In this document: positions 1 through 64,000 of the stretch, one piece after another
Layout: every line of letters begins with the position of its first letter
How positions within the stretch are numbered: the first letter of the stretch is position 1
DNA from: Schmidtea polychroa
Taxonomy: Eukaryota
DNA: 64,000 nucleotides
NCBI GenBank assembly: GCA_044892525.1
Contig: CM097888.1
Coordinates: 75,702,001-75,766,000, forward strand
Direction of reading: 5' to 3'
Notes under the pieces: generated by a model
The model's database searches: none
The model's input: the letters and a program-made list of their open reading frames with translations, nothing else
What the model was told of the DNA's origin: nothing
Translations under genes and position numbers: made by a program

Positions 1-80
1 ATTAAATGATAAAACACATTTTAATTAACTAAGTCAAACAATTCACAATATATATTTTATTATTCACATAAATTTAATTG

Positions 81-3000
81 TTAAAGTGCTTGTTTCGATT
101 TGCATTCATTTCTAGACATAGCAGTTGCAATATGCATTTGGCGAATCTTATAGTGACCGTAGGCATAACTTTCATTACAATTGTACCAATACCTTTTATC
201 GTCCAAACATTGGAGAGCTCGTTTTTCTGTCATGAAAGTATACAACTGATGATTGACACTTCCTATTCTTTTTTGTGAGATGCTCACTGTTCCACCATCA
301 GTATACACTTTTTTATAGGCTTCATGTGTAAGATTAGAGTTTGTAAGTCTTATTCCTTTGGCTTTTAGAGTGTTTTTATCGCCTTGGAGTGAGTAGCACT
401 TGGGTCGAAGAAACACCCATTCTTTATATTGATTTCCTTTATTCTCATCCTTGAATTTCCCGATTACCGAACAAATTTTATCTGAGAACAATGGATCAGT
501 CACTGGATAATTTGAAGTATCTAGGAGCCCATCGGCAATCATTTTTGGATATAGTTGTAAGCGTAAATCTACATTTTTACACTCTAAAAAGAAGGAATCT
601 GTGTCACCGGCTACGATATTAATTTGACAATTGAATTCTTCTCTATAACTCTGTAGTTCTTTATATTGAAACTGGTACATGCGAAGTTTGGATAAATCAA
701 GTACGGTTTGTCCAATATACATTGGTCTATCTAAACACACAATTTCCTTATTGAGTATAACAGCAATGAGATCATCCGCAATCTTGATGCTACGACGAAA
801 CATAGGATTACTACAATAAGTTATCAATCTTTTGCTTTTGCTGCATAATCTCAAATTTATACGTTTCTTCAAGTTTTCCACAGTTTTACCGTATAAACTG
901 TTGTTCTTTAACTTATAATAATCTCGCTGAAACGAATCTGTACTAGCTGCTCTCATTTTGGTATTGTAATCAATATAACCTTTGAAAATAGCCACTTGCT
1001 TGAATTCTACAGCACGATTAACTTTTGTGACTTTTGCGCCGTAACTCAACCACTCTGTCAAAACTCTACCATTAACTACATAGTTTTTCTTAGGCTCATG
1101 AGTTAACAACAGCTTTTCAACTTTACTACCAGGTGGATAACAAAGCTCAGGAGCTATAGGTAAATCATCTAGTTTATCTTGTATACTATCAGGAATGACG
1201 ATGTCAACCTCTAGAACATATCCAAGATCTCCATCAAACTTATCCCCATTTGCACATCTTTCAACAATACCATTCATTTCAGTCTGATCATTTATCCATC
1301 TAAATTCACCAACAGGAAGTTTTTGCGACAGCGCCCATCCATATAAATTATTAACATCTAGGTATGACATTTGTGTTGATTCATCAGCTTCAACATGATG
1401 TTTGTTGATAAATGTCATTCCACCACGAATACCAGCTTCAAATAAACGGTAAAGCTCTGGATCTTGAATAAGTTCTACTGGTTCAGGTAACTGTTTAATA
1501 GCTGATGCCCAACTTAATCCGGGTATGGAAACAAACGATAGAGCCTCAAGTCCATCTTCGTCAAATGTTTTTTCTCTGAAAGCTTCAAAAACATCGGCCA
1601 ACAGAAAAACATCCAACTTGAGATATACTAGCATGTAATCTAGCAGTGTCTCACAGTTGTATTGTCGCCAGATTCGATTTGCATGTATATAATCTTCTTG
1701 ACTAACTCCCTCCCAAATCGGTGGTAATTCTGTTATTGACTGTAAAACATCCATTGATGTAGCCATATCATAAGGAAATATGCCTTTACCAGTTATTAAA
1801 TGCGAATTGAAAATCTTTGAAGTAAGTGGAAGACGTGGCAAGTTTTTTGATAAATTTGCCAAGCTGCTATTTAAAAATTGTAAAGAATCAATGAATCTAA
1901 TTCTTCTGCCTTTCGATGTCGCTGTAAGTGTGAGAAACTTTTCTGTTGATTGAGGAATAAGAATTAAATTCCAATCGGGGAATTTTCCAATTGCATATTT
2001 TAATATATGATGAATGTCATATCCACGAAGATTATGAAATACAACAGGTAAAGACGGATTGATTCTTCTAGCCAAATTACAATCTTGACACGCTGCTCCG
2101 AGATATTGACCGGTAAAATGATCATGATCCCGAACAGGTATATTGATAATCTTTTTACAAAGGTAGCAATGAGTTTGATTCGTAAATTCTTCCTGCTGTT
2201 CCCAAGTGAGTTCCATCATTTCCTTCGATCCATTAATTTTATACCACGGATAAACTATGTCTGTAGCTATATCATCCAATGCTTGTATAAACTGAATGAT
2301 ACAGTTTTTCCCAACAAATGTTTCATTTCGAATCGGACAACCTTGATGAAGAAGCACAAATTCAGATGCAATCGGCTCATGTTTTTGGAAGTGCTTGTCA
2401 TCTAGAGGTAATATTGATTCAAAGTCCGCGTAGACAACAAACTGCTGTTTTATAGTTTTACTCCAGTCTTTAAATTCGATATATTTATTCTCTGGCATTG
2501 AGTATAGAGTCGTCCACTCCACATTCTTCCTACAAAGACCTATATGTCTTTCAAAAGCAGGACGTTTTTGAAACCCATGAAGACACGTATGACACCAATG
2601 TGATTGGATTCTGACTCCTTCTACTCTATCTCTGTAATTGAGCAGTCGATCGAGATTAGTTACAGCCAAAAAATGATAATTTAATTCTAAAATTTAGTTA
2701 ATATTTTTAATGATTAAAAGAAATATTACCTTCTTCAATCAATAAGAGATATAATTGACATCCCGTCGAAGTACTTCTATATACCAAGTCAACGAACGGA
2801 TTCTTGAAAATATCATTAGTTTTTTGTTTAATTGGATCTTTATTATATTTGAGAACATTGATCGCTAGATTAGGATTCATTGCCTCAAATTGGCAAATGT
2901 TAACCAACTTCATTGGAAACCAATCTGATTTCCATTTTAACTCTAAATATATATATATTTTTAGAATGATATAAATATATATTACCACTTAAATTATATT

Positions 3001-4058
3001 TCATTACTCTTTCTCTGTGGTGTTTTATGTCATCATAATGTAATACGGCCAGTATGCTATATAAAAAGCAGAATTGATCATTATTTTGAACATTAACTAA
3101 AGCCTGGCAGTTTTTCAGGTAATTTGGCGTTTTAATGTAACTTGAACCTAAGTAAATATCTTGATTTATATATATAATAATGTAAATAAACTTACCAGAT
3201 ACATGTATTATGTCTGATAATTTAGTTAAAATCATAGTAACTTCTAATATTTTATGAATTCTCCACCCACTACTTTGTTGAGTGTATTTCTCCAACTTTT
3301 CTTTTAATTTTTCAATTCCATCATTAATAAATGAAGATGACATTGTAATTGCTTTATTCGACAAACACCATTTTTTAATTTCACCATCCTCTTTGATAAA
3401 CTCTGCACAAAGTCCAAATTGGATTTTTACTGTACCCATTCGTTGAATATGATCTTCTATTTCTCTGATGAGACAATCTGGAACAACAATGTCAGGAGAA
3501 TTAATTGCAGATACATCGCTTGTCAATTCAACACGAGAACCATTTAAGTCAGACTCCCGACGTGGACACAATTGTATGTTAGAGTCTCCATTTCCGTAAA
3601 ATATTGACTTTCGTTTTGTGGTGCCAGAGTTTTGTCTAACTATATTTATAATTAATATTAAACAACTTAAATAACATAACTTGTAACATATTCTTTAATC
3701 TGCTTAGGATCGTATGATGTATTCATTTTCGGTTGTACTATAAAAAATTAATAATTGTTAATAGTAGAAAGAGTATTACTTTTAGTGATCATCCTGCTCT
3801 TCGTTTCTTCGAATCTTCTAAGATGGTGTCCGTGTTGTCGTACAAACATTAACCACCTACCTGGTGATATAATGAGACATTCCGGACATATGTAACCCGA
3901 TAAGGTAGAGTCATTTATCTTGAAATATGATGATGTAACTGATTTACAGTTCTCCACATCTTCATGACTTTCGGCAATACAAAATTTATATAAACTGCAT
4001 CCGTTCACTAAAAGAAAATAATCATTAATATTAGATAGAGAATAAAAAATTATTCACT
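81..4058 (-). CDS. polB: Protein-primed family B DNA polymerase (Polinton/Maverick type), spliced; left mirror copy, 1236 aa predicted
   Basis: Mirror image (12218-x) of 8160-12137. Introns at 4008-4057, 3738-3779, 3640-3680, 3148-3195, 2943-2985 and 2687-2729. Joins ORFs 3748-4008, 2900-3571, 2707-2988 and 81-2669. The translated ORFs are identical to those of the right copy. Confidence 0.88.
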
Positions 4059-4319
4059 TATATAAGTTAAATTAAAAGTTTAAATGACAAACATTTGAAA
4101 AGTTACTGCTTATATATTACACATGATTAAATTCTGACCAATCAAAATCAAGGAAGGGGTAGGAAAAATAAATATATTCTGACCAATCAAAATCAAGGAA
4201 GGGGTAGGAAAAATAAATGTGTTACAGTATTTTAAAAGTTCAATATATTTTAAAACACATTTTGATGCTAAAGTTGACTTATTTAACATTTTCATAATAA
4301 TTTAATAAAAATAATGTGA

Positions 4320-4790
4320 TGAACCCACAAAGTAATATCATTTTTCATCAAATTGCAAAACAGTAATAACGTTTTCATAAAATTGTAACAAAATAATAAC
4401 ATATTTCAGATAAATTTTCAACAGTTGTAAAATATTTAAACAAATTGTAACAAGATTAGAAAATATTACAACAAAGTAGTAACATATTTCAGAAAATTTC
4501 AACAAAGTTGTAAAATATTTATCAAATTGTAACTAAAATAATAAAAATATTGCAACAAAGTAATAAAATAATGATGTTAATTGGGACAAATCAATACATT
4601 ATTTCGAAGACGGACAACAAATTAAAAAGAATATTGTAATAAATTGTGAAGTCTTTCAGTAAATTACAACAAAGTAATAACATATTTCGGAAATATTTCA
4701 CCAGATGTAAAATATTTAAGCAAAATGTTATAAGATTATAAAAATATTGCAACAAAGTAATAAAATAATACAACATTTTAAACTCTAGAT
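4320..4790. repeat. Degenerate AT-rich tandem repeats (AAATTGTAACAAA / AACATATTTCAG type); mirror at ~7428-7898
   Basis: Recurrent imperfect phrases such as caacaaagtaataa, aacatatttc and gttgtaaaatattt. Confidence 0.7.
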
Positions 4791-5830
4791 CAATCCATTT
4801 TATAGAAAATTAAATTTTATCTCTATAATATATGAATAAATATACAAGGAAATTACGTTAACTGTATGAAAAATACAAATTTATCGTAAAAAACATGTGT
4901 GTATTACACACAACATACAAGACATAATTTTTAATCAAGCTATTTTATAGAAAATTAAATTTTATCTATATATTATATGAATAAAATCCTAAGAAAATTA
5001 CGTTAACTATATGAAAAATACAAATTTATCTTAAAAACATGTGTGTATTACACACAGAACAAGATACATAATTTCTAATCAATCCATTTTATAGAAAATT
5101 AAATTTTATCTCTATAATATATGAATAAATATACAAGGAAATTACGTTAACTGTATGAAAAATACAAATTTATCGTAAAAAACATGTGTGTATTACACAC
5201 AACATACAAGACATAATTTTTAATCAAGCTATTTTATAGAAAATTAAATTTTATCTATATAATATATGAATAAATATTCAAGGAAATTACGTTAACGTAT
5301 AATAAATACAAATTTATCATAAAAACATGTGTGTATTACACAAAAAAAAAACAAGATACATAATTTCTAATCAATCCATTTTATAGAAAATTAAATTTTA
5401 TCTATATAATATATGAATAAAATCCTAAGAAAATTACGTTAACTATATGAAAAATACAAATTTATCTTAAAAACATGTGTGTATTACACACAGAACAAGA
5501 TACATAATTTCTAATCAATCCATTTTATAGAAAATTAAATTTTATCTATATATTATATGAATAAAATCCTAAGAAAATTACGTTAACTGTATGAAAAATA
5601 CAAATTTATCGTAAAAACATGTGTGTATTACACACAAAGCGACAAACTAAAATTGTAATTGAGCCATTTTATAGAAAATTAAATTTTATCTATATAATAT
5701 ATGAATAAAAATCCAAGAAAATTACGTTAACCGCGCGAAAAATACAAATTTATCGTAAAAACATGTGTGTATTACACACAAAGCGACAAACTAAAGTTTT
5801 AATTGAGCCATTTTGTAGAGAATTAAATTC
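4790..5830. repeat. ~145-bp tandem array (7 units plus a partial), left arm
   Basis: The TTTTATAGAAAATT anchor recurs at 4798, 4943, 5087, 5232, 5379, 5523 and 5667, with a variant at 5811. Most units contain the inverted repeat TGTGTGTA-T-TACACACA and all contain ATTACGTTAAC. Confidence 0.95.
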
Positions 5831-5900
5831 TGCCTATACATGGTTACACTTAAATCCCAATCGAACAAAGAGAAAAGAGAGAAAAAGAGAGAGAAAAAAC

Positions 5901-6235
5901 AGTAGAGTAGGGTATTGTGTGGACCCGGGAACAAAGACATATGACGTCATCGATGACGTCACAAAGAAATATGACGTCATACCCCCCTACCCCCCCCCCC
6001 GGGGGAGGGGGGGGGTTTTTAAATTTTTTTTTTTTTAAATTTTTTTTAAAAATTTTTTTTTTAAATTTATATTACGTTGCGGTATTTTAAAATTTATATT
6101 ACGTTGCGGTATTTTAAAATTTATATTACGTTGCGGTATTTTAAAATTTATATTACGTTGCGGTATTTTAAAATTTATATTACGTTGCGGTATTTTAAAA
6201 ATATATTACGTTGCGGTATTTTAAAATTTTAATTA
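5901..6235 (+). mobile_element. End module, copy 1: AGTAGAGTAGGG start, three TGACGTCA, C-run/G-run stem, six 27-bp ACGTTGCGG repeats
   Basis: TGACGTCA at 5942, 5954 and 5972; C-run 5982-6000 followed by G-run 6001-6015; ACGTTGCGG at 6074, 6101, 6128, 6155, 6182 and 6208. Homologous to 44740-44998 (minus) and 63128-64000. Confidence 0.8.
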
Positions 6236-6387
6236 TATTTTATTCACATCATTCGTAAGGTCTTGAAGAGATCTATGCAAAGGTTTCACCCGGGTCCACA
6301 CAATACCCTACTCTACTGTTTTTTCTCTCTCTTTTTCTCTCTTTTCTCTTTGTTCGATTGGGATTTAAGTGTAACCATGTATAGGCA

Positions 6388-7428
6388 GAATTTAATTCTC
6401 TACAAAATGGCTCAATTAAAACTTTAGTTTGTCGCTTTGTGTGTAATACACACATGTTTTTACGATAAATTTGTATTTTTCGCGCGGTTAACGTAATTTT
6501 CTTGGATTTTTATTCATATATTATATAGATAAAATTTAATTTTCTATAAAATGGCTCAATTACAATTTTAGTTTGTCGCTTTGTGTGTAATACACACATG
6601 TTTTTACGATAAATTTGTATTTTTCATACAGTTAACGTAATTTTCTTAGGATTTTATTCATATAATATATAGATAAAATTTAATTTTCTATAAAATGGAT
6701 TGATTAGAAATTATGTATCTTGTTCTGTGTGTAATACACACATGTTTTTAAGATAAATTTGTATTTTTCATATAGTTAACGTAATTTTCTTAGGATTTTA
6801 TTCATATATTATATAGATAAAATTTAATTTTCTATAAAATGGATTGATTAGAAATTATGTATCTTGTTTTTTTTTTGTGTAATACACACATGTTTTTATG
6901 ATAAATTTGTATTTATTATACGTTAACGTAATTTCCTTGAATATTTATTCATATATTATATAGATAAAATTTAATTTTCTATAAAATAGCTTGATTAAAA
7001 ATTATGTCTTGTATGTTGTGTGTAATACACACATGTTTTTTACGATAAATTTGTATTTTTCATACAGTTAACGTAATTTCCTTGTATATTTATTCATATA
7101 TTATAGAGATAAAATTTAATTTTCTATAAAATGGATTGATTAGAAATTATGTATCTTGTTCTGTGTGTAATACACACATGTTTTTAAGATAAATTTGTAT
7201 TTTTCATATAGTTAACGTAATTTTCTTAGGATTTTATTCATATAATATATAGATAAAATTTAATTTTCTATAAAATAGCTTGATTAAAAATTATGTCTTG
7301 TATGTTGTGTGTAATACACACATGTTTTTTACGATAAATTTGTATTTTTCATACAGTTAACGTAATTTCCTTGTATATTTATTCATATATTATAGAGATA
7401 AAATTTAATTTTCTATAAAATGGATTGA
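6388..7428. repeat. ~145-bp tandem array, right arm (mirror copy)
   Basis: Reverse complement of 4790-5830. Confidence 0.95.
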
Positions 7429-7999
7429 TCTAGAGTTTAAAATGTTGTATTATTTTATTACTTTGTTGCAATATTTTTATAATCTTATAACATTTTGCTT
7501 AAATATTTTACATCTGGTGAAATATTTCCGAAATATGTTATTACTTTGTTGTAATTTACTGAAAGACTTCACAATTTATTACAATATTCTTTTTAATTTG
7601 TTGTCCGTCTTCGAAATAATGTATTGATTTGTCCCAATTAACATCATTATTTTATTACTTTGTTGCAATATTTTTATTATTTTAGTTACAATTTGATAAA
7701 TATTTTACAACTTTGTTGAAATTTTCTGAAATATGTTACTACTTTGTTGTAATATTTTCTAATCTTGTTACAATTTGTTTAAATATTTTACAACTGTTGA
7801 AAATTTATCTGAAATATGTTATTATTTTGTTACAATTTTATGAAAACGTTATTACTGTTTTGCAATTTGATGAAAAATGATATTACTTTGTGGGTTCATC
7901 ACATTATTTTTATTAAATTATTATGAAAATGTTAAATAAGTCAACTTTAGCATCAAAATGTGTTTTAAAATATATTGAACTTTTAAAATACTGTAACAC

Positions 8000-8110
8000 A
8001 TTTATTTTTCCTACCCCTTCCTTGATTTTGATTGGTCAGAATATATTTATTTTTCCTACCCCTTCCTTGATTTTGATTGGTCAGAATTTAATCATGTGTA
8101 ATATATAAGC
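8000..8110 (+). promoter_or_regulatory. Putative Pol II promoter of polB: duplicated 45-bp unit with reverse CCAAT boxes, then a TATA-like element (mirror at 4108-4218)
   Basis: ATTTATTTTTCCTACCCCTTCCTTGATTTTGATTGGTCAGAAT at 8000-8042 and 8045-8087; ATTGG at 8031 and 8076; TATATAAG at 8102-8109, about 50 bp before the predicted A|TG. Confidence 0.6.
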
Positions 8111-8159
8111 AGTAACTTTTCAAATGTTTGTCATTTAAACTTTTAATTTAACTTATATA

Positions 8160-11100
8160 AGTGAATAATTTTTTATTCTCTATCTAATATTAATGATTAT
8201 TTTCTTTTAGTGAACGGATGCAGTTTATATAAATTTTGTATTGCCGAAAGTCATGAAGATGTGGAGAACTGTAAATCAGTTACATCATCATATTTCAAGA
8301 TAAATGACTCTACCTTATCGGGTTACATATGTCCGGAATGTCTCATTATATCACCAGGTAGGTGGTTAATGTTTGTACGACAACACGGACACCATCTTAG
8401 AAGATTCGAAGAAACGAAGAGCAGGATGATCACTAAAAGTAATACTCTTTCTACTATTAACAATTATTAATTTTTTATAGTACAACCGAAAATGAATACA
8501 TCATACGATCCTAAGCAGATTAAAGAATATGTTACAAGTTATGTTATTTAAGTTGTTTAATATTAATTATAAATATAGTTAGACAAAACTCTGGCACCAC
8601 AAAACGAAAGTCAATATTTTACGGAAATGGAGACTCTAACATACAATTGTGTCCACGTCGGGAGTCTGACTTAAATGGTTCTCGTGTTGAATTGACAAGC
8701 GATGTATCTGCAATTAATTCTCCTGACATTGTTGTTCCAGATTGTCTCATCAGAGAAATAGAAGATCATATTCAACGAATGGGTACAGTAAAAATCCAAT
8801 TTGGACTTTGTGCAGAGTTTATCAAAGAGGATGGTGAAATTAAAAAATGGTGTTTGTCGAATAAAGCAATTACAATGTCATCTTCATTTATTAATGATGG
8901 AATTGAAAAATTAAAAGAAAAGTTGGAGAAATACACTCAACAAAGTAGTGGGTGGAGAATTCATAAAATATTAGAAGTTACTATGATTTTAACTAAATTA
9001 TCAGACATAATACATGTATCTGGTAAGTTTATTTACATTATTATATATATAAATCAAGATATTTACTTAGGTTCAAGTTACATTAAAACGCCAAATTACC
9101 TGAAAAACTGCCAGGCTTTAGTTAATGTTCAAAATAATGATCAATTCTGCTTTTTATATAGCATACTGGCCGTATTACATTATGATGACATAAAACACCA
9201 CAGAGAAAGAGTAATGAAATATAATTTAAGTGGTAATATATATTTATATCATTCTAAAAATATATATATATTTAGAGTTAAAATGGAAATCAGATTGGTT
9301 TCCAATGAAGTTGGTTAACATTTGCCAATTTGAGGCAATGAATCCTAATCTAGCGATCAATGTTCTCAAATATAATAAAGATCCAATTAAACAAAAAACT
9401 AATGATATTTTCAAGAATCCGTTCGTTGACTTGGTATATAGAAGTACTTCGACGGGATGTCAATTATATCTCTTATTGATTGAAGAAGGTAATATTTCTT
9501 TTAATCATTAAAAATATTAACTAAATTTTAGAATTAAATTATCATTTTTTGGCTGTAACTAATCTCGATCGACTGCTCAATTACAGAGATAGAGTAGAAG
9601 GAGTCAGAATCCAATCACATTGGTGTCATACGTGTCTTCATGGGTTTCAAAAACGTCCTGCTTTTGAAAGACATATAGGTCTTTGTAGGAAGAATGTGGA
9701 GTGGACGACTCTATACTCAATGCCAGAGAATAAATATATCGAATTTAAAGACTGGAGTAAAACTATAAAACAGCAGTTTGTTGTCTACGCGGACTTTGAA
9801 TCAATATTACCTCTAGATGACAAGCACTTCCAAAAACATGAGCCGATTGCATCTGAATTTGTGCTTCTTCATCAAGGTTGTCCGATTCGAAATGAAACAT
9901 TTGTTGGGAAAAACTGTATCATTCAGTTTATACAAGCATTGGATGATATAGCTACAGACATAGTTTATCCGTGGTATAAAATTAATGGATCGAAGGAAAT
10001 GATGGAACTCACTTGGGAACAGCAGGAAGAATTTACGAATCAAACTCATTGCTACCTTTGTAAAAAGATTATCAATATACCTGTTCGGGATCATGATCAT
10101 TTTACCGGTCAATATCTCGGAGCAGCGTGTCAAGATTGTAATTTGGCTAGAAGAATCAATCCGTCTTTACCTGTTGTATTTCATAATCTTCGTGGATATG
10201 ACATTCATCATATATTAAAATATGCAATTGGAAAATTCCCCGATTGGAATTTAATTCTTATTCCTCAATCAACAGAAAAGTTTCTCACACTTACAGCGAC
10301 ATCGAAAGGCAGAAGAATTAGATTCATTGATTCTTTACAATTTTTAAATAGCAGCTTGGCAAATTTATCAAAAAACTTGCCACGTCTTCCACTTACTTCA
10401 AAGATTTTCAATTCGCATTTAATAACTGGTAAAGGCATATTTCCTTATGATATGGCTACATCAATGGATGTTTTACAGTCAATAACAGAATTACCACCGA
10501 TTTGGGAGGGAGTTAGTCAAGAAGATTATATACATGCAAATCGAATCTGGCGACAATACAACTGTGAGACACTGCTAGATTACATGCTAGTATATCTCAA
10601 GTTGGATGTTTTTCTGTTGGCCGATGTTTTTGAAGCTTTCAGAGAAAAAACATTTGACGAAGATGGACTTGAGGCTCTATCGTTTGTTTCCATACCCGGA
10701 TTAAGTTGGGCATCAGCTATTAAACAGTTACCTGAACCAGTAGAACTTATTCAAGATCCAGAGCTTTACCGTTTATTTGAAGCTGGTATTCGTGGTGGAA
10801 TGACATTTATCAACAAACATCATGTTGAAGCTGATGAATCAACACAAATGTCATACCTAGATGTTAATAATTTATATGGATGGGCGCTGTCGCAAAAACT
10901 TCCTGTTGGTGAATTTAGATGGATAAATGATCAGACTGAAATGAATGGTATTGTTGAAAGATGTGCAAATGGGGATAAGTTTGATGGAGATCTTGGATAT
11001 GTTCTAGAGGTTGACATCGTCATTCCTGATAGTATACAAGATAAACTAGATGATTTACCTATAGCTCCTGAGCTTTGTTATCCACCTGGTAGTAAAGTTG

Positions 11101-12137
11101 AAAAGCTGTTGTTAACTCATGAGCCTAAGAAAAACTATGTAGTTAATGGTAGAGTTTTGACAGAGTGGTTGAGTTACGGCGCAAAAGTCACAAAAGTTAA
11201 TCGTGCTGTAGAATTCAAGCAAGTGGCTATTTTCAAAGGTTATATTGATTACAATACCAAAATGAGAGCAGCTAGTACAGATTCGTTTCAGCGAGATTAT
11301 TATAAGTTAAAGAACAACAGTTTATACGGTAAAACTGTGGAAAACTTGAAGAAACGTATAAATTTGAGATTATGCAGCAAAAGCAAAAGATTGATAACTT
11401 ATTGTAGTAATCCTATGTTTCGTCGTAGCATCAAGATTGCGGATGATCTCATTGCTGTTATACTCAATAAGGAAATTGTGTGTTTAGATAGACCAATGTA
11501 TATTGGACAAACCGTACTTGATTTATCCAAACTTCGCATGTACCAGTTTCAATATAAAGAACTACAGAGTTATAGAGAAGAATTCAATTGTCAAATTAAT
11601 ATCGTAGCCGGTGACACAGATTCCTTCTTTTTAGAGTGTAAAAATGTAGATTTACGCTTACAACTATATCCAAAAATGATTGCCGATGGGCTCCTAGATA
11701 CTTCAAATTATCCAGTGACTGATCCATTGTTCTCAGATAAAATTTGTTCGGTAATCGGGAAATTCAAGGATGAGAATAAAGGAAATCAATATAAAGAATG
11801 GGTGTTTCTTCGACCCAAGTGCTACTCACTCCAAGGCGATAAAAACACTCTAAAAGCCAAAGGAATAAGACTTACAAACTCTAATCTTACACATGAAGCC
11901 TATAAAAAAGTGTATACTGATGGTGGAACAGTGAGCATCTCACAAAAAAGAATAGGAAGTGTCAATCATCAGTTGTATACTTTCATGACAGAAAAACGAG
12001 CTCTCCAATGTTTGGACGATAAAAGGTATTGGTACAATTGTAATGAAAGTTATGCCTACGGTCACTATAAGATTCGCCAAATGCATATTGCAACTGCTAT
12101 GTCTAGAAATGAATGCAAATCGAAACAAGCACTTTAA
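8160..12137 (+). CDS. polB: Protein-primed family B DNA polymerase (Polinton/Maverick type), spliced; terminal-protein-like region, vOTU-like protease, Zn finger, exonuclease with HNH/EndoVII insert, polymerase
   Basis: Motifs: ExoI VVYADFES, ExoII FHNLRGYD, ExoIII YLKLDVFLLADVFE, pol A YLDVNNLYGWA, pol B KLKNNSLYGK, pol C AGDTDS, LRPKCY, KAKGI; EndoVII-like CYLC..VRDHDHFTGQYLGAACQDCN; N-terminal SGWRI, GSSYIKTP, NNDQFCFLYSILA and NYHFLAVTNLDRLL. Manual splicing: exons 8160, 8211-8438, 8481-8537, 8579-9022, 9071-9232, 9276-9488, 9532-12137 = 3711 nt, one open frame. The core from 9532 is certain; the upstream exons are inferred from GT-AG sites that keep the frame. Confidence 0.9.
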
Positions 12138-12156
12138 CAATTAAATTTATGTGAAT

Positions 12157-12162
12157 AATAAA
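12157..12162 (+). terminator. Candidate polyadenylation signal of polB
   Basis: AATAAA 20 bp after the TAA at 12135-12137; weak evidence in AT-rich DNA. Confidence 0.35.
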
Positions 12163-12462
12163 ATATATATTGTGAATTGTTTGACTTAGTTAATTAAAAT
12201 GTGTTTTATCATTTAATTATTCATTTGTCCAATTAATTTAGATAATTAGTTTCAAGTAAGAAATATTATTTTTGTGTTTATTTTATTTATTTATTTATTT
12301 TTTCCGAAATATTAATATCCAGTTTATCTAAAATTAACTCAGCGTTTTATTTTATAATAAATTAAATAATTTCTAATTAAAATTTATTCAAATTGAATAA
12401 TTACTAATTAAAATTTTATTCAAATTGAAATATTATCGTTATAATTTACCTCTTGTTAGAAT

Positions 12463-12606
12463 NNNNNNNNNNNNNNNNNNNNNNNNNNNNNNNNNNNNNN
12501 NNNNNNNNNNNNNNNNNNNNNNNNNNNNNNNNNNNNNNNNNNNNNNNNNNNNNNNNNNNNNNNNNNNNNNNNNNNNNNNNNNNNNNNNNNNNNNNNNNNN
12601 NNNNNN
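12463..12606. other. Assembly gap ending the right arm region (other gaps: 13481-13667, 14203-14439, 44355-44525, 57074-57208)
   Basis: Runs of N. Confidence 0.99.
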
Positions 12607-13003: not shown

Positions 13004-13480
13004 CTAGCTGAGGCCCCGATATTAGTCAAGATAATTTGATAGTATGTATCTCACCGAAGGGTCAACAATGTCACTGGAATTATTGTCTAGTTAATGATAT
13101 TTTCTGTATTATTAGTTACTTTTACTAAAATATACAGTTGAAATAAATTTATTTTTTCATCACAATGCAGTTTGATATACAATATTTCGAGTTTTACCGT
13201 CAGGAGCAAAAACTTACAAATTCTTCCCAGTTCCTATTCTTGAACACGACACATACAATTGACCATGGGAAAAGCAAGGAGTTCCTAGATTAATACCAGT
13301 AACTTTAAATGATTGACCTTGAGCTTTATTAATAGATATTGCAAAAGCAAGACACATTGGAAACTGAAGACGCTTAAACTCAAACGGCATATCATTAGGA
13401 AACATGGGAATTCTTGGTATAATGCCGTTCTTAATATCGAAATACCTTACTAAAATTGGAGAAAGTTTTATTTTAGTGTG
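13004..13480 (-). mobile_element. Helitron 3' remnant: PIF1-type helicase C-terminus and CTAG end
   Basis: [38 protein letters not shown]...[13 protein letters not shown] matches Helitron helicase motifs. A GC-rich subterminal segment ends CTAG|T at 13004-13007. Confidence 0.85.
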
Positions 13481-13848
13481 NNNNNNNNNNNNNNNNNNNN
13501 NNNNNNNNNNNNNNNNNNNNNNNNNNNNNNNNNNNNNNNNNNNNNNNNNNNNNNNNNNNNNNNNNNNNNNNNNNNNNNNNNNNNNNNNNNNNNNNNNNNN
13601 NNNNNNNNNNNNNNNNNNNNNNNNNNNNNNNNNNNNNNNNNNNNNNNNNNNNNNNNNNNNNNNNNNNTTTCTAGGAGAGCTACATTCACATCCAAAATGT
13701 GTATGCGATACTTACATAATATTTACCTACAATGCAATAAATTCATCACAATAAAACAAATATATGTCAAAATATGGAAAATTAAAGTATATAACTATTT
13801 ATTATAAAAAAATGTAACTTAGGAAATCAAATTTAATGAAAATTATTT

Positions 13849-14202
13849 TTATATAGAACTTTTCGATGTTGATGCTCTACATTGGGTTGAATCCACTAGA
13901 TTTTTGTAGTTTGGGATATAAGTGCTAAGACAACTTCTTAGGCTGGATTCCAAATGGTCATCTGTTAATGTTGCTCGGTACTTTGACTTTATAATTTTCA
14001 TATGTAAAAAAGCAGACTCACATAAATAAGTTGAACCAAAAAATGATACTAAATTTTCGAAGCATTTTTTCAAGATTGAATATTTATCCTCTAAGCATAA
14101 AACAGACATTTTATATAAAATCTAAAGTTATATAAAAAAAATTTTTTTTATGAAGATCTAATAAAAAATCCTTCGCGATCTACCGGTAGATCGCGATCGA
14201 CC
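13849..14202 (-). mobile_element. hAT (SPIN/Charlie/GTF2IRD2-like) transposase C-terminal remnant with subterminal palindrome
   Basis: FGSTYLCESAFLHMKIIKSKYRATLTDDHLESSLR is the hAT dimerisation-domain pattern; palindromic CGCGATCTACCGGTAGATCGCG at ~14175-14196. Confidence 0.8.
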
Positions 14203-14439
14203 NNNNNNNNNNNNNNNNNNNNNNNNNNNNNNNNNNNNNNNNNNNNNNNNNNNNNNNNNNNNNNNNNNNNNNNNNNNNNNNNNNNNNNNNNNNNNNNNNN
14301 NNNNNNNNNNNNNNNNNNNNNNNNNNNNNNNNNNNNNNNNNNNNNNNNNNNNNNNNNNNNNNNNNNNNNNNNNNNNNNNNNNNNNNNNNNNNNNNNNNNN
14401 NNNNNNNNNNNNNNNNNNNNNNNNNNNNNNNNNNNNNNN

Positions 14440-14926
14440 TGATAGCATTTTCTTGCAGTATTCATTAAATAGTATTCATTAGTAGCACAGTCCATGCTGC
14501 GAAAACTTTGATTATGGATTATTGTGTGAAAAGCGAAAGTACCCTCCATAACTGCCAATTTTTTTTCATTAGTTCCAAAAGTATTCCCTTTAAAAAATGT
14601 TGTCAGTTTGGATGTTGACGCTGCTGTGTCATGAGGCGTTTTATGTACTTTAGTTTTAATGTGTGCCGTTATTGCACTACGTCCATGAATTGCAATTGAA
14701 AATTCCCTATTGCAGATTGTGCATTTAACCAAGGAGTCACTGTCAAAATAATTTTAAATATTTAATTAATAAAATTGAAATAAAATAATCTAAAAAAATG
14801 TTTTAGAAATATAAGTGAGTACAAAATTATACAAATGAGTACTTTCAGAGTACAGGATTTGAAAAGAGTACGGTTTGCGAAAAAAAGAGTACAAATCTCA
14901 GTAAATGAGTATAGTTGGTCACCTTA
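14440..14926 (-). mobile_element. hAT-like transposase 5' remnant (Zn finger) with TAAGGTGACCA terminus
   Basis: VKCTICNREFSIAIHGRSAITAHIKTKVH followed by EGTFAFHTIIHNQSFRSMDC; the terminus resembles the TAGGGTGACCA hAT ends. Confidence 0.65.
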
Positions 14927-16963
14927 CTATAAGTTGAGAAATTTAGTTCTATTTCCAGGATAACGAAAGGGGTCTTCGACGTATACTCAGGAGGCAAATA
15001 ATATGGGAGAATTCCAGACCGACTCGGCGACTATTCAACATTACGAAAATGAATTATAATATTAAACCCTATTGTTTATTTAAGTTGTCATTATTTTGTA
15101 ATCATTATTCAAGCAAAATCACATTTCAACAAGTTACTAGTTAAATATAAATCGAAATAAAATATACTTCTGTCATAATTTTACAAAATATAAACTTCTA
15201 CAATATTCTTTTTCATGCACCGACTGCGAATATCTTTATTATCGCTTGCCCAAACTTCCGCCAAAACAAATAAAATATCGAGCCATGCATAAACGAAGAT
15301 TACGGACACAATAATAACATACAACTCTCTTTGACTGTCATCATCATGGCTCATATTTCAAACATCGTATCAACATGATGACAGGTAATTGATTTATTAA
15401 TGTATTTTTCCTTAGTTTTAAAAAATATAATAAAATACTTAGCAATATGACCGAATTGAAGAGGAAGCGAACGTCGTACGAAGGGGGTTATAAATTGAAA
15501 GTTGTTGAGTATGCACAACTTCATGGGAATTCTAATGCAATGCGTGAGTTTGATGTGAATGAAAAGCTTCTACGTAACTGGCGGAAAACAAAGGAGACAT
15601 TTATTGACATGCCAAAGACAAAACGTGCTTGACGTGGGAATGTGTCTTCATTTCCGATATTAGAAGTGGAATTGAATGAGTGGATCCTGTCTCAGTCGTT
15701 ACACGTGATGCCATTCATTTTCGAGCTGCTCAGTTGAAGAAAACCGACAAATACAAGGATATACTCGGTATGGCTACTTTTTTTGCATTGGCGGGATGGT
15801 GTTCCCGCTTCATGGATATTCATTCCTTGACACTGCGGCAGTGAACTAAGATAGTTCAAAACTTGCCAGCAGTGCTAGAAGAAAAGATTGCTTCATTCAA
15901 GCAGAGAAAACAACATGGCTATGCTTTATCAGAGATTGGAAACATGGACTGTGAATCGCCCATTACCTTTGATTTGCCGCCAAATAAAACAGTGAACCTC
16001 TCAGGCACCAAAACTGTTTTAAGACAACAGGCCATGAAAAGACTCGATTCACAGTAGTGCTGGCATGCATGGCTGATGGTACGAAATTAAAACCTGTCGT
16101 CATTTCCAAGCGGAAAACTTTACCAAAAGGTATCAAATTTATATCAGGTTTCATTGTTCAGGCTCACCCCAAAGGCTGGATGGACGAAGCAGAAACGGCT
16201 GCATCATGTTTGGAACACTCGACCTGGAACAATGATGAACAAACGTTCTATGCTTATTTGGGATATGTTCCGTGCTCACGTCACTGAATCTTGAAGTAAA
16301 ACTGCTCGCGATCTACGAACAGACATGGCTGTAATTCCGAGTGGTCTGGCGTCAGTGCTACAACCGCTTGACGTGTGTCTTAACAAACTATTGAAGGACA
16401 GCCTACATAAGATGTGAATAGATGACCTCTGATTCAGCGACTCTCACAAATTGTGGAAATATTATGAAGCCGGTCATCACAGTTGTGTTCAATTGGGTCA
16501 GGGAGGCGTGGGAAGAAATGGTGCGAAAGTCATTCCTGAAATGTGGAATCTCGAACACAATGAACGGCTCACAAGATGATACACTTTACCAAAATTGAGT
16601 TTAAACCGAGACCGAAAGTGATGACGATAATAATGATGCAGAGTTCACAAAAAAACAATATGATGAACTCTTTAACAAAACAAATGATGATAAAGAGTTT
16701 TTAGGATTTTAAATTATATTTTAATTGCATTTTTTTGAATATACTTCCCTTACTTACTATTTTTATACTATACAAACCGGAAGTTATTGATTTGTATTAA
16801 CATGTTGGTATTTTTTTTATTAAAAGTAGATATTAACCTTTTATTTAATAAGTTCGATTTTTTGTTTCGACTTATATTCGGGTCATTGATTTTAGACCCT
16901 ATTTTCTACCAAAAATTACACTTCGACTTATACTTGAATCGACTTATAGTCGAGTATATACTG
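14927..16963 (+). mobile_element. Decayed pogo-family (Tc1/mariner superfamily) DNA transposon
   Basis: Brinker-like DBD KRTSYEGGYKLKVVEYA..GNSNAMREFDVNEKLLRNWRK; DDE_1 fragments IGNMD, LACMADGTKLKPVVI and KGWMD; many stops and frameshifts; 3' end CGACTTATAGTCGAGTATATACTG|TA. The 5' boundary is tentative. Confidence 0.8.
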
Positions 16964-22229: not shown

Positions 22230-23135
22230 CAAATCCGTGGTGGAAAGGTGTCTAGAAGGTAAATATATCGATCCATTACCTGTTATATGATAACATAGAA
22301 CACTTGATGTTCGAATGAACTGAAAATACGAGTGATGGATCCAATGGGTTTACAATATGGCTGAAACTGGAGTGAAAAGAATCTTTTTTTGTGAACCGTA
22401 GAGAATCAGAAAAAACGCCTGAATTTGCGGCTATGCAATTCGGCTTCTAGGCTAATTACATATACATCTAAACTAACGTTTAAAAGGACTTATGAAATTG
22501 ACAATGACTTAGTATCAGTCTTGCTAAATAAGAAAGCTATTTGTTTAGATAGAACCAGCTACATTGGCCAAACGTACTTGATCTATTGAAACTTAGAATG
22601 TATCAGCTGCAGTATGAAGAGTTACAAAAATATTGTAACGAATTCAACTGTAAAATTAATATCGTTGCAGGTGATACGGATTCATTTTTCCTTGAAGTAA
22701 TAATTTGTAAGGTTGATGTTCTTTTACCAGCCATGATCCGGGATAATTTACTAGACACTTCTAATTATGATCCAATTCATCTCTTATACAGTAAGAACCT
22801 TGATTCTGTCGTTGGAAAGTCCAAAGACGAGAATAAAGGACTTAAATATAAGGATTGGGTTTTTCTTAGGCCTAAATATTATAGTTTGTTAGGTGATGAC
22901 GAGAGTAAAAACGCTAAAGGAGTAACATTGAAAGGTAGTGACATAAAACATCAGTCGTACATGGATTGTCATAATACTAACCAAATTTTTTCTATACCGC
23001 AAACTGGAATAACTAGCAAAAATCACCAGCTATTCACCTTAAAAAAATGAAAAACTACACTTATCAACGCAGATGATAAAAGAGTTTGGATGGGGAAAAA
23101 TAAAAGTTATGCATATGGGCATTATATGGGAGGTG
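22230..23135 (+). pseudogene. Decayed, divergent pPolB C-terminal half
   Basis: Fragments KSVVERCLEG; TVENQKKRLNLRLCNSASRLITY..LNKKAICLDRTSYIGQT; KLRMYQLQY..IVAGDTDSFFLE..FLRPKYYSL; DDKRVW..SYAYGHY. All align to the intact polymerase, with frameshifts and an internal deletion. Confidence 0.88.
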
Positions 23136-23689
23136 ACTCATTTGCTGTTTAATAATTCGATCCGGATCCATCATAGTCCCAACTCAAAGAAACAGCTGAA
23201 GATATACCGGATGTTATTTAAATAAATCTTTGTTAAAAAATTTGTTTTTATTGATTTTTTTGAATTAAATGTATAATAAGTTTAACTAATATATTTTGAA
23301 CATTTTTGTCTCAGTTTTCGTAAATTAGTAAAAAAGAGTATTAAGAATAACAGAGAAGAATTAATAATTTAAATATAAACTAAAATAAATTAAATTAAAT
23401 AATAAAATAAAAAAATAAAATTATAATAATTAATTAATTAAATAAAAATAATGAAATTAAATGAAATAATTAATGAAAATATTTGTTAACTTCTGATTAA
23501 TTATTGAGTAATAAGGGGGGTACCAAATTGCTACCTACTGTGAATTTTAAAGATTGTAATAAACCAATTATACGTTGGGTATTGTTATTAGTTATTAGTT
23601 TATAGAACACGAGTAGTCATAGGCACCAACTATTAGGGGTTAATAATTATAAAACCCAACAATTCAAATACCAAATACTCACACAGAAA

Positions 23690-43249: not shown

Positions 43250-46200
43250 GATTCTCCGCTAAGTGTTGATGCCTTTACAAAAGATAATATTCACCTTTTT
43301 ATTCCCCAGCTTTTTTGACAAACTCTTTCCTTTTCTATTCGATTTAATTCTTTTCCACTTTTTACGTATCTCCTGGTTCTATATTTTCTTTTCCCTAAAC
43401 TTCCTAATTCATCTTTTCTTACACTCGTTCTCTTCGAATCCCTAGCTGAGGTTAAATGCCGGTTTGCTCTGATTTTCCCCATGCCTTATATACTCTTTGA
43501 AATCGGGATGAACAAAGGTTATTGCTAAGCCAATCTCTCTCCTGACATTTGACTCCACATATCTGCTACGGCTGTCAGCCAAACCTCTCTGGACGCCCTA
43601 TCTTTTTCTTGGTCTTCTCACATTAATCATTGTGATAAGATGGGCCTAAATTTTTCTTCTGTTTTCTTTTCTCTTTGTTTACCCAACTCGGAATTTCTTT
43701 CTACCTGCTAATTAATTAATTAATTGTATTTTCTTATTTTTCAACTTTTATATACTTTTTCGCTTTCTTCCTAACACTTTCTGAAAATTCCGTTATCACC
43801 ATGTTATTCCTTGCTACTTGCTCCACCCATAACCAATTTTCCAGACTCTAATTCGAATTTATGAATCTTTTATCGATTTTCCACAGTTCACATTTTTGTG
43901 CTTTTCCCTTATACTGATGTACCTTCTCGAGCCTTTCTATCCATTTTATTTCTTCGCATTGTCACCTCTCTCTCTGACCAATCTTACACTTCAATCATTC
44001 CTTTAATTACAAATATAATTCAATTTTACTTTTAATTAGTCTATAACCCCAACAAAATTAATATTTGACAAAACTATATATTAGACTTTATAGTACGGGT
44101 GATTACAAGATGAATGATGTAATAATATGTTTGTATACATATAGAAAATATAATAACACTTGTGAGCCATAATACACCTAATTACGAAAATCTAATCTAA
44201 AAAATCTAAAAAATCTAAAAAAATCAATAAATATATATTATAGGAACACACAAACTTACCTGTGTGTAAAAGTTTAATGCTTCGAAAGTTAACATATTTA
44301 TTATAGGAGTCGTAAAAGTGACAGAAAAGTAATTAAACGTACAAACACAAAACANNNNNNNNNNNNNNNNNNNNNNNNNNNNNNNNNNNNNNNNNNNNNN
44401 NNNNNNNNNNNNNNNNNNNNNNNNNNNNNNNNNNNNNNNNNNNNNNNNNNNNNNNNNNNNNNNNNNNNNNNNNNNNNNNNNNNNNNNNNNNNNNNNNNNN
44501 NNNNNNNNNNNNNNNNNNNNNNNNNATGTTAAAGTTTTGCCTTGAATATTTTTAGCAGTACTTTGTGAGCAGTACCTTTGTGAGTAGTACCTTTGTGACC
44601 ATTACCCTTAGGGGGACAGAATATCTTGTCGGATAGACTCAGACTATATATGATAATGCAAAGTATGTGTAAAGTATGTGCAATAATTTTATTCTGTCAA
44701 CTTTAGCGTCAAAATAAGTTTTAAAAATAAATTTTAATTTTAAAATACCGCAACGTAATATATTTAATAATTAAAATATAATTAAATTTTAAAATACCGC
44801 GACGTAATATATTTAAAAAGTATGATGAGTCATGTGTCTTTGTTAAAATGTCTTTGTTACGTTCTTTTTTTAAAAAAATTAAAAAAATTTTTTTTTAATT
44901 AAAAAAACACCCCTGCGGGGGGTATGACATAATTTCCTTTGTGACGTCATCGATTACATAACAGTTCTTTGTTCCCGGGTCCACAAATTATCCTACTTTC
45001 ACCATTCTCTAATTTACACCTATCCCGTTTCCAGTATCAATTTTGATAACATTTCACTTTATTCTACTTCCTCAGATTTGGGCATTTTTCTATTTCGTGT
45101 CTGGTTGTACCCTTTGTAGTTCTCTTTTTGGCATATCTTTCTTTTCCATTACTTTTCTACTTGACCGCCATTTTCTGTCGTTCAATTTCGGTTTTCCTTT
45201 TACTCGAAACTATTCAATTTAACATAATTTAATAATTTACTTTTACAACCTCAACATTCCTATTAATATTGTTATACTTATTATTGTTGTTGGTATCATC
45301 CTCACCATAGTAATTACTATCATCAGCATTATCGTGGGTATCACTACCCTTCTTATCATAAATAAGTATCTCCCCTTATTGTCATCGCTACTACTCTTTT
45401 CTTTGTTACCACTATTAGTTATTTATCATTAGTATTATTACTATATTTATTATAGATAAAATTATTATCATCTTTATTATTACTAGTGTTGGGTTTAAGG
45501 TAATTTAAGTCGGTAAACTCTGACTCCTCGTGTCCCTTTTAATCAAAACAATAAACTACCCAACGTATATTTCAATAACAAAAATATATTCTTTTCTCAA
45601 CAATAAACAATCAATAATCAAAGTCAAGTTTGACCGATTCGGCGTTCGGTGTTACATCCAAAAGATAATTTTCACCTTTTTATTTCTTCAGCTTCTCTCG
45701 ACCAACGTTTGCTTTTGCTATTTGGTTAGATTCATTTTTCCATTTTGTATCTCCTATTCTATATTTTCTTTTTCCCTAATCTCCTTATTTCGTCTTACCG
45801 TTTGCCTATTCTCGTTTCTTCTTACCCTAACTGAGGCAAAATGCCGATTATTTTGAATTTCGACTTTGCTTTTATACTGGAATAATCACTTTGATTAATC
45901 CGTTTTTGACCTGTTTGCTTCTATCTGACAATGGTTTGACAACCGGCTCCTTGAACGTTGTTTGCACCATATCATGATTAATTGGCTCCCTTTGCTATTC
46001 CTTCGTAATAGTCCTAACTTTGTTTGTCTCCATTCATCATGCTGTCATGATAATGGTCTTCCGAGATTCCCATTTTGTTTACTTTTCCTGTTAATCGAGC
46101 TCGGGTTTCCTTCATCTCTCGGGTTCTCCATTGGCTCGGGTTTCCTATTAGCTCGGGTTTCCTATTAGCCAATTAATTAATTAATTAACGATTTTCTGCT

Positions 46201-63127: not shown

Positions 63128-64000
63128 AGTTATTTAGGGTAATGTGTGGAACCGGGAACAAAGACATATGACGTCATCGATGACGTCACAAAGACATATA
63201 ACGTCATACCCCCAGGGAGGGTTTTTTTTTAATTTAAAAAAAAAATTTTTTTTTAATTTTAAAAAAAAAATTTTTTTTTTTAATTTTTAAATATTTCAAA
63301 TATATTACGTTGCGGTATTTTAAATATATTACGTTGCGGAATTTAAAATTTAAAATACCGCAACGTAATCTATTTAAAATACCGCAACGTAATATATTTA
63401 ATAATTAAAATTCCGCAACGTAATATATTTAAAATATATTACGTTGCGGTATTTTAATTATTAAATATTTTACGTTGCGGTATTTTAAATATATTACGTT
63501 GCGGTATTTTAATTATTAAATATTTTACGTTGCGGTATTTTAAATATATTACGTTGCGGTATTTTAATTATTAAATATTTTACGTTGCGGTATTTTAAAT
63601 ATATTACGTTGCGGAATTTTAATTATTAAATATATTACGTTGCGGTATTTTAAATAGATTACGTTGCGGTATTTTAAATTTTAAATTCCGCAACGTAACA
63701 TATTTAAAATACCGCAACGTAATATATTTAATAATTAAAGTACCGCAACGTAATATATTTAAAATACCGCAACGTAATATATTTAATAATTAAAGTACCG
63801 CAACGTAAAATATTTAAAATACCGCAACGTAATATATTTAATAATTAAAATTCCGCAACGTAATATATTTAAAATACCGCAACGTAAAATATTTAATATT
63901 TAAAATACCTCAACGTAAAATATTTAATAATTAAAATTCCGCAACGTAATATATTTAAAATACCGCAACGTAAAATATTTAATAATTAAAATACCGCAAC
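63128..64000 (+). mobile_element. End module, copy 3, with an expanded ACGTTGCGG minisatellite in alternating orientations
   Basis: AGTTATTTAGGGTAATGTGTGGAACCGGGAACAAAGACATATGACGTCATCGATGACGTCACAAAGA, then CCCCCAGGGAGGG, poly-T/A and >20 units of ATATTACGTTGCGGTATTTT or its reverse complement up to the window edge. Confidence 0.88.

What the first reader, a model, noticed from the sequence alone, without database searches (positions are those of the whole stretch)
5901..6317. The palindrome loop is a mobile end module; its first 29 bp recur inverted 360 bp inward
Seen: the module starts AGTAGAGTAGGGTATTGTGTGGACCCGGG (5901-5929). The other two copies (63128 plus, ~44998 minus) share sequence from about this point but have unrelated flanks, which marks it as an element boundary. 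The same 29 bp occur inverted at 6289-6317. Established: Polinton termini typically begin 5'-AG, often AGT-type repeats. Inference, model 1: 5901 is a true element end whose 3' strand folds onto 6289-6317 and primes synthesis, creating the left arm. Model 2: the module sat beside the pPolB upstream region and fold-back used only the CCCGGG microhomology. Model 1 would be a self-priming telomere for a pPolB element.
Basis: partly seen in the sequence, partly recalled or inferred. Interest (0 to 1): 0.75.

Follow-up and report, generated by a model that had tools for sequence, protein, structure and literature searches.

The report
Fold-back end of a Polinton palindrome
The end of a high-copy, virus-like mobile element carries an internal mirror copy of its own first 24 bases, and here the element appears to have folded back on that copy to make a giant DNA palindrome with a polymerase gene in each arm, a possible snapshot of how palindromic Polintons arise.

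Summary
The inverted 29-mer is real, but it is only the inner tip of a perfect palindrome (arms 1-5929 and 6289-12217, loop 359 bp) with a protein-primed polymerase gene in each arm. The element end is 5906 (AGTAGG), not 5901. An in-window empty-site paralog breaks there, and 41 and 38 contigs from two independent studies carry unrelated flanks at 5906. The relevant repeat is therefore 24 bp (5906-5929 / 6289-6312). The loop-to-arm junction occurs in two studies; the arm-to-end junction is supported only indirectly in two, at about half the arm depth in one. A one-off artefact is unlikely. Best model (0.45): the 3' end of a Polinton-type element folded onto the internal repeat and was extended into an inverted dimer that then spread. 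Rivals: insertion followed by CCCGGG fold-back (0.25), or flip/flop hairpin ends merged by the assembler (0.12). The polymerase keeps terminal-protein and OTU-type regions, so hairpin priming would add to protein priming. Integrase, far end and target-site duplication could not be seen. The scan noted palindromic Polinton derivatives earlier on other DNA (unchecked).

The parts
5906..5929 (+). Terminal 24 bp of the element end (starts AGTAGG, ends CCCGGG)
   Evidence: Boundary from paralog comparison and loose ends at 5906 in X1 and X3
5901..5905 (+). AGTAG doubling; mirror of 6313-6317, belongs to the arm
   Evidence: chance of this 5-mer at an arbitrary junction about 1e-3
5930..6016 (+). 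End-module head: three TGACGTCA motifs, a 20-bp palindrome (5942-5961) and a C/G hairpin (5989-6016)
   Evidence: shared with the 63135 and 44997 copies
6058..6229 (+). 27-bp minisatellite, 6.4 copies
6246..6288 (+). Loop tail, unique in the window; joined to the repeat in public contigs
6289..6312 (-). Internal inverted copy of the terminal 24 bp (candidate fold-back priming site)
   Evidence: fold of 5906-6330 minus strand pairs the 3' end with it, z -7.83, 0 of 100 shuffles
5930..6288 (.). 359-bp non-palindromic loop
1..5929 (-). Left palindrome arm (runs off the window start)
   Evidence: 100% over 5929 bp
6289..12217 (+). Right palindrome arm (visible part)
6389..7429 (+). 144-bp tandem array, 7.2 copies, 88% matches
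7940..8007 (-). Diverged inverted relic of the module's inner end inside the arm
   Evidence: Score 67 against the 44997 copy, best of 200 shuffles 39; against the loop only 44 vs 43
8000..8087 (+). 45-bp doublet with CCAAT-type boxes upstream of pPolB
   Evidence: 77% match upstream of the pPolB relative in L002
8234..12137 (+). Polinton-type pPolB, N-terminal part split by short candidate introns (9023-9070, 9233-9275, 9489-9531); main ORF 9525-12137 open; mirror copy in the left arm
   Evidence: PF03175 E 7.5e-31; homology blocks; intron candidates and motifs; no RNA data
44696..44997 (-). Second end-module copy, inserted into another repeat with its boundary at the 5906 equivalent
63135..64000 (+). 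Third end-module copy; minisatellite array with fold-back centres at 63348 (51-bp arms) and 63678 (247-bp arms)
22380..23137 (+). Second, degenerate pPolB fragment of the same family
   Evidence: 50-65% identity to relatives

Best explanation
5906 is the left end of a high-copy Polinton-type element whose pPolB gene reads inward. The element carries an inverted copy of its terminal 24 bp, 359 bp inside. When the minus strand was single-stranded (strand-displacement replication, inferred), its 3' end paired with that copy and a polymerase extended it along the element. Second-strand synthesis gave an inverted dimer: arm, 359-bp loop, arm. Such a dimer would carry the far terminus at both outer ends, so it could still be protein-primed and integrated, and spread as a palindromic family. 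Shown: boundary, repeat, palindrome, loop-to-arm junction in two studies. Indirect: arm-to-end junction in two studies. Inferred: order of events, the enzyme, the outer ends.
For: Boundary at 5906 with many unrelated flanks. Contigs continue from the repeat into the loop tail in X1 (11) and X3 (5); their loose letters match the reverse complement of 6259-6288 at 29 of 30 and 22 of 30. In X9 the arm contig ends exactly at 5929, the predicted branch point. All 8 fitting depth solutions need an unlisted contig starting at 5900 and running past 5929, in the simplest at depth 24.5 against 46.6 for the arm. X1 record 4 (5847-5935, 3 other letters, 1 gap) ends where a contig entering a 5906 terminus should end, and the tail would cost at least 4 mismatches. 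The arm holds an old inverted relic of the module, so module and arm share descent. The AGTAG doubling at the junction (p about 1e-3) is odd for a random insertion. Relatives L011 and L018 begin GTAGTAGT with pPolB reading inward. [quoted passage not shown]
Against: No non-palindromic parent (flank, end, loop, repeat, arm on one molecule) was seen. Neither of the 2 other window copies shows the tail or the internal repeat, though one is cut by the window edge and one lies near an N gap. The arm-to-end junction does not meet the tool's bridging rule of 31 letters on each side (only 6 and an inferred 8 letters beyond 5929), and the X9 contig is deduced from depth arithmetic, not listed. Junction data fit the microhomology and flip/flop models equally. 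No integrase, capsid gene or outer terminus is visible: 0 hits outside pPolB from 283 ORFs of 20 related loci. The 100% arm identity may be assembler collapse and does not date the event.
Confidence: 0.45

Rival explanations
1. Insertion then microhomology fold-back. An element end inserted into the pPolB upstream region at 5905|5906. A later break near 6294 folded back on CCCGGG at 5924-5929 and copied the arm. The 24-bp repeat is a by-product, and the palindrome then multiplied.
For: The symmetry ends exactly at a self-complementary CCCGGG on both sides. The module inserts at many sites. The tail is unique in the window and absent from the 2 other copies. The family folds back readily in its minisatellite.
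Against: Needs two rare events. The five bases before the insertion repeat the element's own first five (p about 1e-3). A CCCGGG within 400 bp has p about 0.003 by composition. The arm already contains module-related sequence, and the inward pPolB layout matches relatives' ends.
Confidence: 0.25
2. Programmed hairpin end with flip/flop isomers. Monomers carry the loop in either orientation between the two 24-bp repeats, as after parvovirus-style hairpin transfer. The palindrome is a replication intermediate, or an assembler path through both isomers.
For: Gives the same two junctions and the same 2:1 depth ratio seen in X9. The 3' end folds stably onto the internal repeat. Hairpin priming has been proposed for terminal palindromes of virophages and PLVs (10.64898/2026.07.28.741278, passages).
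Against: Both other window copies are in the same orientation (2 of 2). No nickase or Rep domain was found in the arm ORFs scanned. The polymerase family keeps protein-priming domains. Flop ends would put only 24 letters on the stretch laid, so probably could not show them.
Confidence: 0.12
3. The 407-bp unit 5906-6312 is an independent MITE with 24-bp terminal repeats, moved by another transposase, which merely seeded a palindrome beside a pPolB gene.
For: Perfect 24-bp inverted ends around a gene-less core; many insertion sites.
Against: The 44997 copy continues past the minisatellite into arm-related sequence, with no right repeat in view. The tail side is joined to the arm side in 11 and 5 contigs. 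The end motif resembles those of pPolB relatives.
Confidence: 0.07
4. One-off artefact of whole-genome amplification, a fold-back long read or assembly; the palindrome does not exist in the organism.
For: Arms are 100% identical and start at window position 1. Amplification is known to make palindromic chimeras (PMC6218980, passages).
Against: The same base-exact junctions recur in runs of separate studies and in diverged variants (X1, X3, X9). Random chimeras would not.
Confidence: 0.06

Closest known systems
Polinton/Maverick elements (PMC8097293, PMC11161782, PMC6431247; passages read)
   Same: pPolB with TP-like and OTU-like N-terminal regions, 5'-AG terminus, integration at many sites; relatives at about 31-34% identity sit beside rve integrase and A32 ATPase genes.
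   Different: An element end sits in the centre of a palindrome, with an internal inverted copy of the terminal 24 bp. pPolB has short candidate introns. Integrase, capsid genes, far end and TSD are not visible in the window.
Tetrahymena rDNA palindrome formation at M-repeats (PMC5182062, passages read)
   Same: A short inverted repeat pair near a free end, with a non-palindromic spacer, at the centre of a giant palindrome.
   Different: There 42-bp repeats and a 28-bp spacer in programmed host rearrangement; here 24 bp and 359 bp, one repeat is the terminus itself, and the carrier is a mobile element. No programmed role is shown.
Terminal palindromes of Halocafeteria virophages and PLVs (bioRxiv 10.64898/2026.07.28.741278, passages read)
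   Same: Hairpin priming proposed at the ends of Polinton-related elements.
   Different: There compact palindromes (52 nt in one subtype), mostly in elements with non-pPolB replication genes, and no dimer product in the passages read. Here a long-loop repeat in a pPolB element, with the fold-back product present.
Hairpin and inverted-dimer derivatives of protein-primed replicons: short helper-dependent adenovirus vectors (PMC4189039, passages read), kalilo (reference title only), pGKL1 F1/F2 (recalled, no call)
   Same: Linear protein-primed genomes give hairpins and inverted dimers.
   Different: As recalled, the plasmid cases are deletion derivatives that fold at internal breaks and do not integrate. 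Here the fold is at the terminus, so no sequence need be lost.
Bidnaviridae pPolB (PMC4061559, passages read; L017)
   Same: Related pPolB (28% to L017; bidnavirus-like hits head the fold search).
   Different: Bidnavirus ITRs do not form hairpins and their vOTU is inactivated. Cys and His motifs are present here, and the element is integrated at many sites.

Membership tests
Polinton/Maverick | Protein-primed PolB with TP and vOTU regions | tested here: met
   PF03175. Model of relative P0003 (61% identical; mean pLDDT 52.8, N-terminal part about 80): residues 55-164 match little-finger domains (4ir1, Z 8.4, rmsd 2.4, 92 aligned), residues 178-312 match OTU domains (Z up to 6.9, rmsd 3.5, 95 aligned); Z values are middling. 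These regions align to window 8578-9487. Cys and His motifs lie at 9139 and 9543 and in 11 of 12 relatives.
Polinton/Maverick | Terminus beginning 5'-AG with a sharp boundary | tested here: met
   AGTAGG at 5906; matches 5 of 6 letters of the (AGT)2 motif quoted in PMC8097293.
Polinton/Maverick | Paired terminal inverted repeats at both element ends | not testable with these tools
   No whole genome held; the right arm meets an N run at 12463.
Polinton/Maverick | 6-bp target-site duplication | not testable with these tools
   No copy has both ends inside the window.
Polinton/Maverick | rve integrase, packaging ATPase, protease and capsid genes | tested here: inconclusive
   0 tblastn hits outside pPolB from 283 ORFs of 20 loci, which include rve, A32 and capsid ORFs; the element is cut off by the window and a gap.
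Inverted-repeat-seeded palindrome (Tetrahymena type) | Short inverted repeat at a DNA end flanking a non-palindromic spacer | tested here: met
   24-bp pair, one at the mapped terminus, 359-bp loop.
Inverted-repeat-seeded palindrome (Tetrahymena type) | Non-palindromic precursor that already has the repeat | not testable with these tools
   Needs molecules of more than 450 bp spanning flank to arm; only short contigs were laid.
Parvovirus-type rolling-hairpin end | Flip and flop isomers | tested here: inconclusive
   2 of 2 other window copies share one orientation; X9 depths fit isomers or palindromes.
Parvovirus-type rolling-hairpin end | HUH Rep nickase | tested here: inconclusive
   No such Pfam hit in the 4 arm ORFs scanned; the rest of the element is not seen.
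MITE | Copies bounded by both terminal repeats, with host DNA on each side | tested here: inconclusive
Bidnaviridae | Inactivated vOTU catalytic residues | tested here: not met
   Cys and His motifs present; criterion from PMC11161782. Residues were assigned by motif, not by a structure of the window protein.

The most novel reading that the evidence does not exclude
The internal 24-bp repeat is a selected, built-in hairpin primer. This pPolB element would replicate with one hairpin-primed end and one protein-primed end, so that the palindromic dimer (or a flip/flop pair) is its normal genome form. The arm-to-junction depth ratio of about 2:1 in X9 would mean nearly all copies take this form. 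This would bridge Polinton and parvovirus replication and explain the recurring palindromic Polintons.
Probability: 0.15. Interest if true: 0.85.

Novelty: new variant of a known kind. Interest (0 to 1): 0.55.

Why it matters
How Polintons start replication is still a model, and palindromic derivatives keep turning up in this scan's unchecked notes without a known origin. Here the fold-back point coincides with a mapped element end and a 24-bp internal repeat, in a high-copy family whose main polymerase ORF is open. That gives a concrete, testable route from a linear element to an integrated inverted dimer, and one set of long reads could separate accident from programmed hairpin priming. If it is an accident, it is still a clear example of a polymerase-bearing palindromic Polinton.

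Tried and rejected
No whole genome is held, so no genome-wide census or TSD test was possible. Module patterns found nothing in metagenome contigs or viral contigs. The single hit in prokaryote genomes (L021) shares only the 20-mer and is chance. pPolB scans of viral contigs with the window protein, P0008 and alignment A2 gave no loci; A1 gave 13 distant loci. Metagenome loci L001-L007 are 1.1-3.4 kb and show no inverted repeats. Run X14 (organism B) covered only the C/G tract 5982-6015, which is uninformative. No RNA holder was listed, so the introns are untested. Rfam gave two weak hits below gathering scores, rejected. Plasmid tblastn and PDB sequence search were blank. The host could not be placed: the proteasome ATPase N-terminus is only about 46-62% identical to any listed hit (exact look-up blank). 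Look-ups of earlier findings by sequence, nearby place and relatives, and one word search, were blank. The reading '5901 is the end, repeat is 29 bp' was rejected. The 100% arm identity was rejected as evidence of recency. Nine literature searches listed no paper describing a pPolB-bearing Polinton inverted dimer centred on its own terminus; the library lacks most subscription papers and Repbase, and no supplements were read.

Full report
OBSERVATION. The 29 bases at 5901-5929 do recur inverted at 6289-6317. They are the inner tip of a much larger structure: 1-5929 and 6289-12217 are 100% complementary over 5929 bp, up to the window edge, around a 359-bp loop (5930-6288) where the symmetry fails at once. 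Symmetry alone therefore gives no boundary at 5901 or 6317. The loop holds a head with three TGACGTCA motifs and a C/G hairpin, a 27-bp minisatellite in 6.4 copies and a tail that is unique in the window. Each arm holds a 144-bp array and a pPolB gene reading away from the loop (PF03175, E 7.5e-31).

WHERE THE END IS. Two more head-plus-minisatellite copies lie at 63135+ and 44997-; they align to the loop copy from 5908 and 5906. The DNA next to the 44997 copy matches two paralogous repeats up to exactly 44998, and the better paralog continues with unrelated sequence, which fixes the insertion boundary at the 5906 equivalent. I laid Logan contigs of 4 of the 24 listed runs (X1, X3, X9, X14; four studies) on 5830-6015. 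Loose ends with unrelated AT-rich flanks are grouped at 5906 in 41 of 3691 laid contigs in X1 and 38 of 985 in X3 (agreement 0.43 and 0.41). A variant group at 5918 (11 and 15 contigs) has loose letters ending in a 12-base variant of the same start, which again places the end at 5906. The table showed 16 rows and withheld 143; none shown is at 5901. Listed flank-bearing pieces start at 5906, 5904, 5906, 5906 and 5910. The end is thus AGTAGG at 5906, and the repeat pair is 24 bp (5906-5929 / 6289-6312). Vertebrate Mavericks end in (AG)3 or (AGT)2 (PMC8097293, passages), and two distant relatives, L011 and L018, begin GTAGTAGT with pPolB reading inward.

IS THE PALINDROME REAL? The junction from the repeat into the loop tail is present in X1 (11 contigs, agreement 0.84) and X3 (5 contigs, 0.95). 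Their loose letters match the reverse complement of 6259-6288 at 29 of 30 and 22 of 30. These records are not listed singly, so how far they reach into the arm is inferred. The opposite junction (arm into head) has indirect support only. In X9 the arm contig ends exactly at 5929 with no differences, which is the branch point expected if both junctions exist. Subtracting the 8 listed X9 records leaves depth that starts in 5900-5906 and ends at 5937. All 8 fitting solutions with up to three unlisted contigs (assumed to end at 5937) include one starting at 5900; the simplest has depth 24.5 against 46.6 for the arm. X1 record 4 spans 5847-5935 with 3 other letters and 1 gap; the tail would need at least 4 mismatches there. 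With that caveat, a ratio near 2:1 is what arm-loop-arm predicts, and an X3 arm contig at depth 5700 against flank-bearing contigs at 20-46 suggests a copy number in the hundreds. Amplification artefacts make palindromes (PMC6218980, passages), but not the same base-exact junction in separate studies. The perfect arm identity may reflect assembler collapse. X14 was uninformative.

THE POLYMERASE. The main ORF 9525-12137 is open and has exonuclease and polymerase motifs. Upstream blocks align to the N-termini of unnamed relatives that are 55-63% identical in the main ORF, separated by AT-rich GT-AG intron candidates of 43-48 nt (no RNA test). A model of relative P0003 is poor overall (pLDDT 52.8) but good at the N-terminus. 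There it matches little-finger domains (Z 8.4, rmsd 2.4, 92 aligned) and OTU domains (Z up to 6.9), the signatures of the terminal protein and vOTU of Polinton pPolB (PMC11161782, passages). Cys and His motifs are present in the window and in 11 of 12 relatives. Protein priming is therefore probably retained. Distant relatives lie beside rve integrase, A32 ATPase or virophage capsid genes, but none of 283 ORFs from 20 loci hits the window outside pPolB, and the arm meets an N run at 12463.

MECHANISM. Best model (0.45): the minus strand's 3' end pairs with 6289-6312, as its predicted fold allows (z -7.83), and is extended; copying yields an inverted dimer whose outer ends would both be the far terminus. 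In X9 head-region depth is 61-79, against about 74 expected for two outer ends plus one inner end; this fits but non-autonomous copies could give the same. Three things favour this model over insertion plus CCCGGG fold-back (0.25): the AGTAG doubling at the junction (p about 1e-3), the old inverted module relic at 7940-8007 (score 67, best of 200 shuffles 39), and the inward pPolB layout. Against it: no precursor molecule was seen, 0 of 2 other window copies show the tail or internal repeat, and the family folds back readily in its minisatellite (centres 63348 and 63678), which makes accidents plausible. A third reading (0.12) is flip/flop monomers from hairpin transfer, which give identical junctions and which an assembler could merge. 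An independent MITE (0.07) and a one-off artefact (0.06) fit worse.

COMPARISON. It works like the Tetrahymena M-repeat palindrome (PMC5182062, passages), but at a mobile-element end. Hairpin priming has been proposed for terminal palindromes of virophages and PLVs, mostly those without pPolB (10.64898/2026.07.28.741278, passages; supplements closed). Short adenovirus vectors form inverted dimers (PMC4189039, passages). A kalilo hairpin derivative was seen as a reference title only, and the pGKL1 case is recalled. Bidnavirus ends do not form hairpins (PMC4061559, passages). PMC6431247, PMC13556262 and 10.64898/2026.10.13.758929 were read as passages and added no precedent. Polinton membership is likely, but rests on the polymerase and the end motif; paired ends, TSD and integrase are untested or inconclusive. 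Earlier scan notes describe palindromic Polinton derivatives on other DNA; they are unchecked, share no sequence with this locus in the look-ups, and one of them prompted the integrable-dimer idea. Nine literature searches listed no description of a pPolB-bearing inverted dimer centred on its own terminus.

VERDICT. Observation partly confirmed, with the boundary corrected to 5906 and the repeat to 24 bp. Interpretation partly supported. New variant of a known kind; interest 0.55. The programmed hairpin-primed reading has probability 0.15 and would merit 0.85.

Noticed in passing
window 25187-26476+, 48331-49620-, 53362-54651-: Three 96-97% identical intronless genes for a divergent 26S proteasome ATPase subunit 6A-like protein, one inverted relative to the others.
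   Followed up: partly
window 63285-64000: Minisatellite units run 2 plus, 3 minus, 9 plus, 12 minus, with fold-back centres at 63348 and 63678; repeated snap-back or an assembly tangle.
   Followed up: partly
window 8021-8081 and L002 48-105: The CCAAT-type doublet upstream of pPolB matches the upstream region of a relative that is only 56% identical in protein (77% over 61 bp), a possibly conserved promoter element.
   Followed up: no
window 9023-9070, 9233-9275, 9489-9531: Short AT-rich intron candidates confined to the N-terminal part of pPolB; close metagenomic relatives are single long ORFs.
   Followed up: partly
window 22380-23137: Second degenerate pPolB fragment; like the first gene it is followed within about 500 bp by an A-rich low-complexity tract.
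   Followed up: partly
window 5968: The window's A is a rare variant; C carries nearly all depth in X1, X3 and X9.
   Followed up: no
window 5864-5884: Common arm variants in X1 and X3 (a substitution at 5864 and alternative purine-rich continuations at 5866 and 5884) show several arm subfamilies.
   Followed up: no
window 12463-12606, 13481-13667, 14203-14439, 44355-44525, 57074-57208: Five N runs of 135-237 bases; the first hides the continuation of the right arm.
   Followed up: no
window 13214-16287: Transposon-like fragments with weak Pfam hits (helicase C-terminus, BED finger, DDE_1), all below curated cut-offs.
   Followed up: partly
window 27130-27704: 38/75-bp tandem array, unrelated to the module.
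   Followed up: no
L017 1-6543: Complete 6543-nt segment with 272-bp terminal inverted repeats and a pPolB 28% identical to the window's; resembles a bidensovirus segment (label recalled).
   Followed up: no
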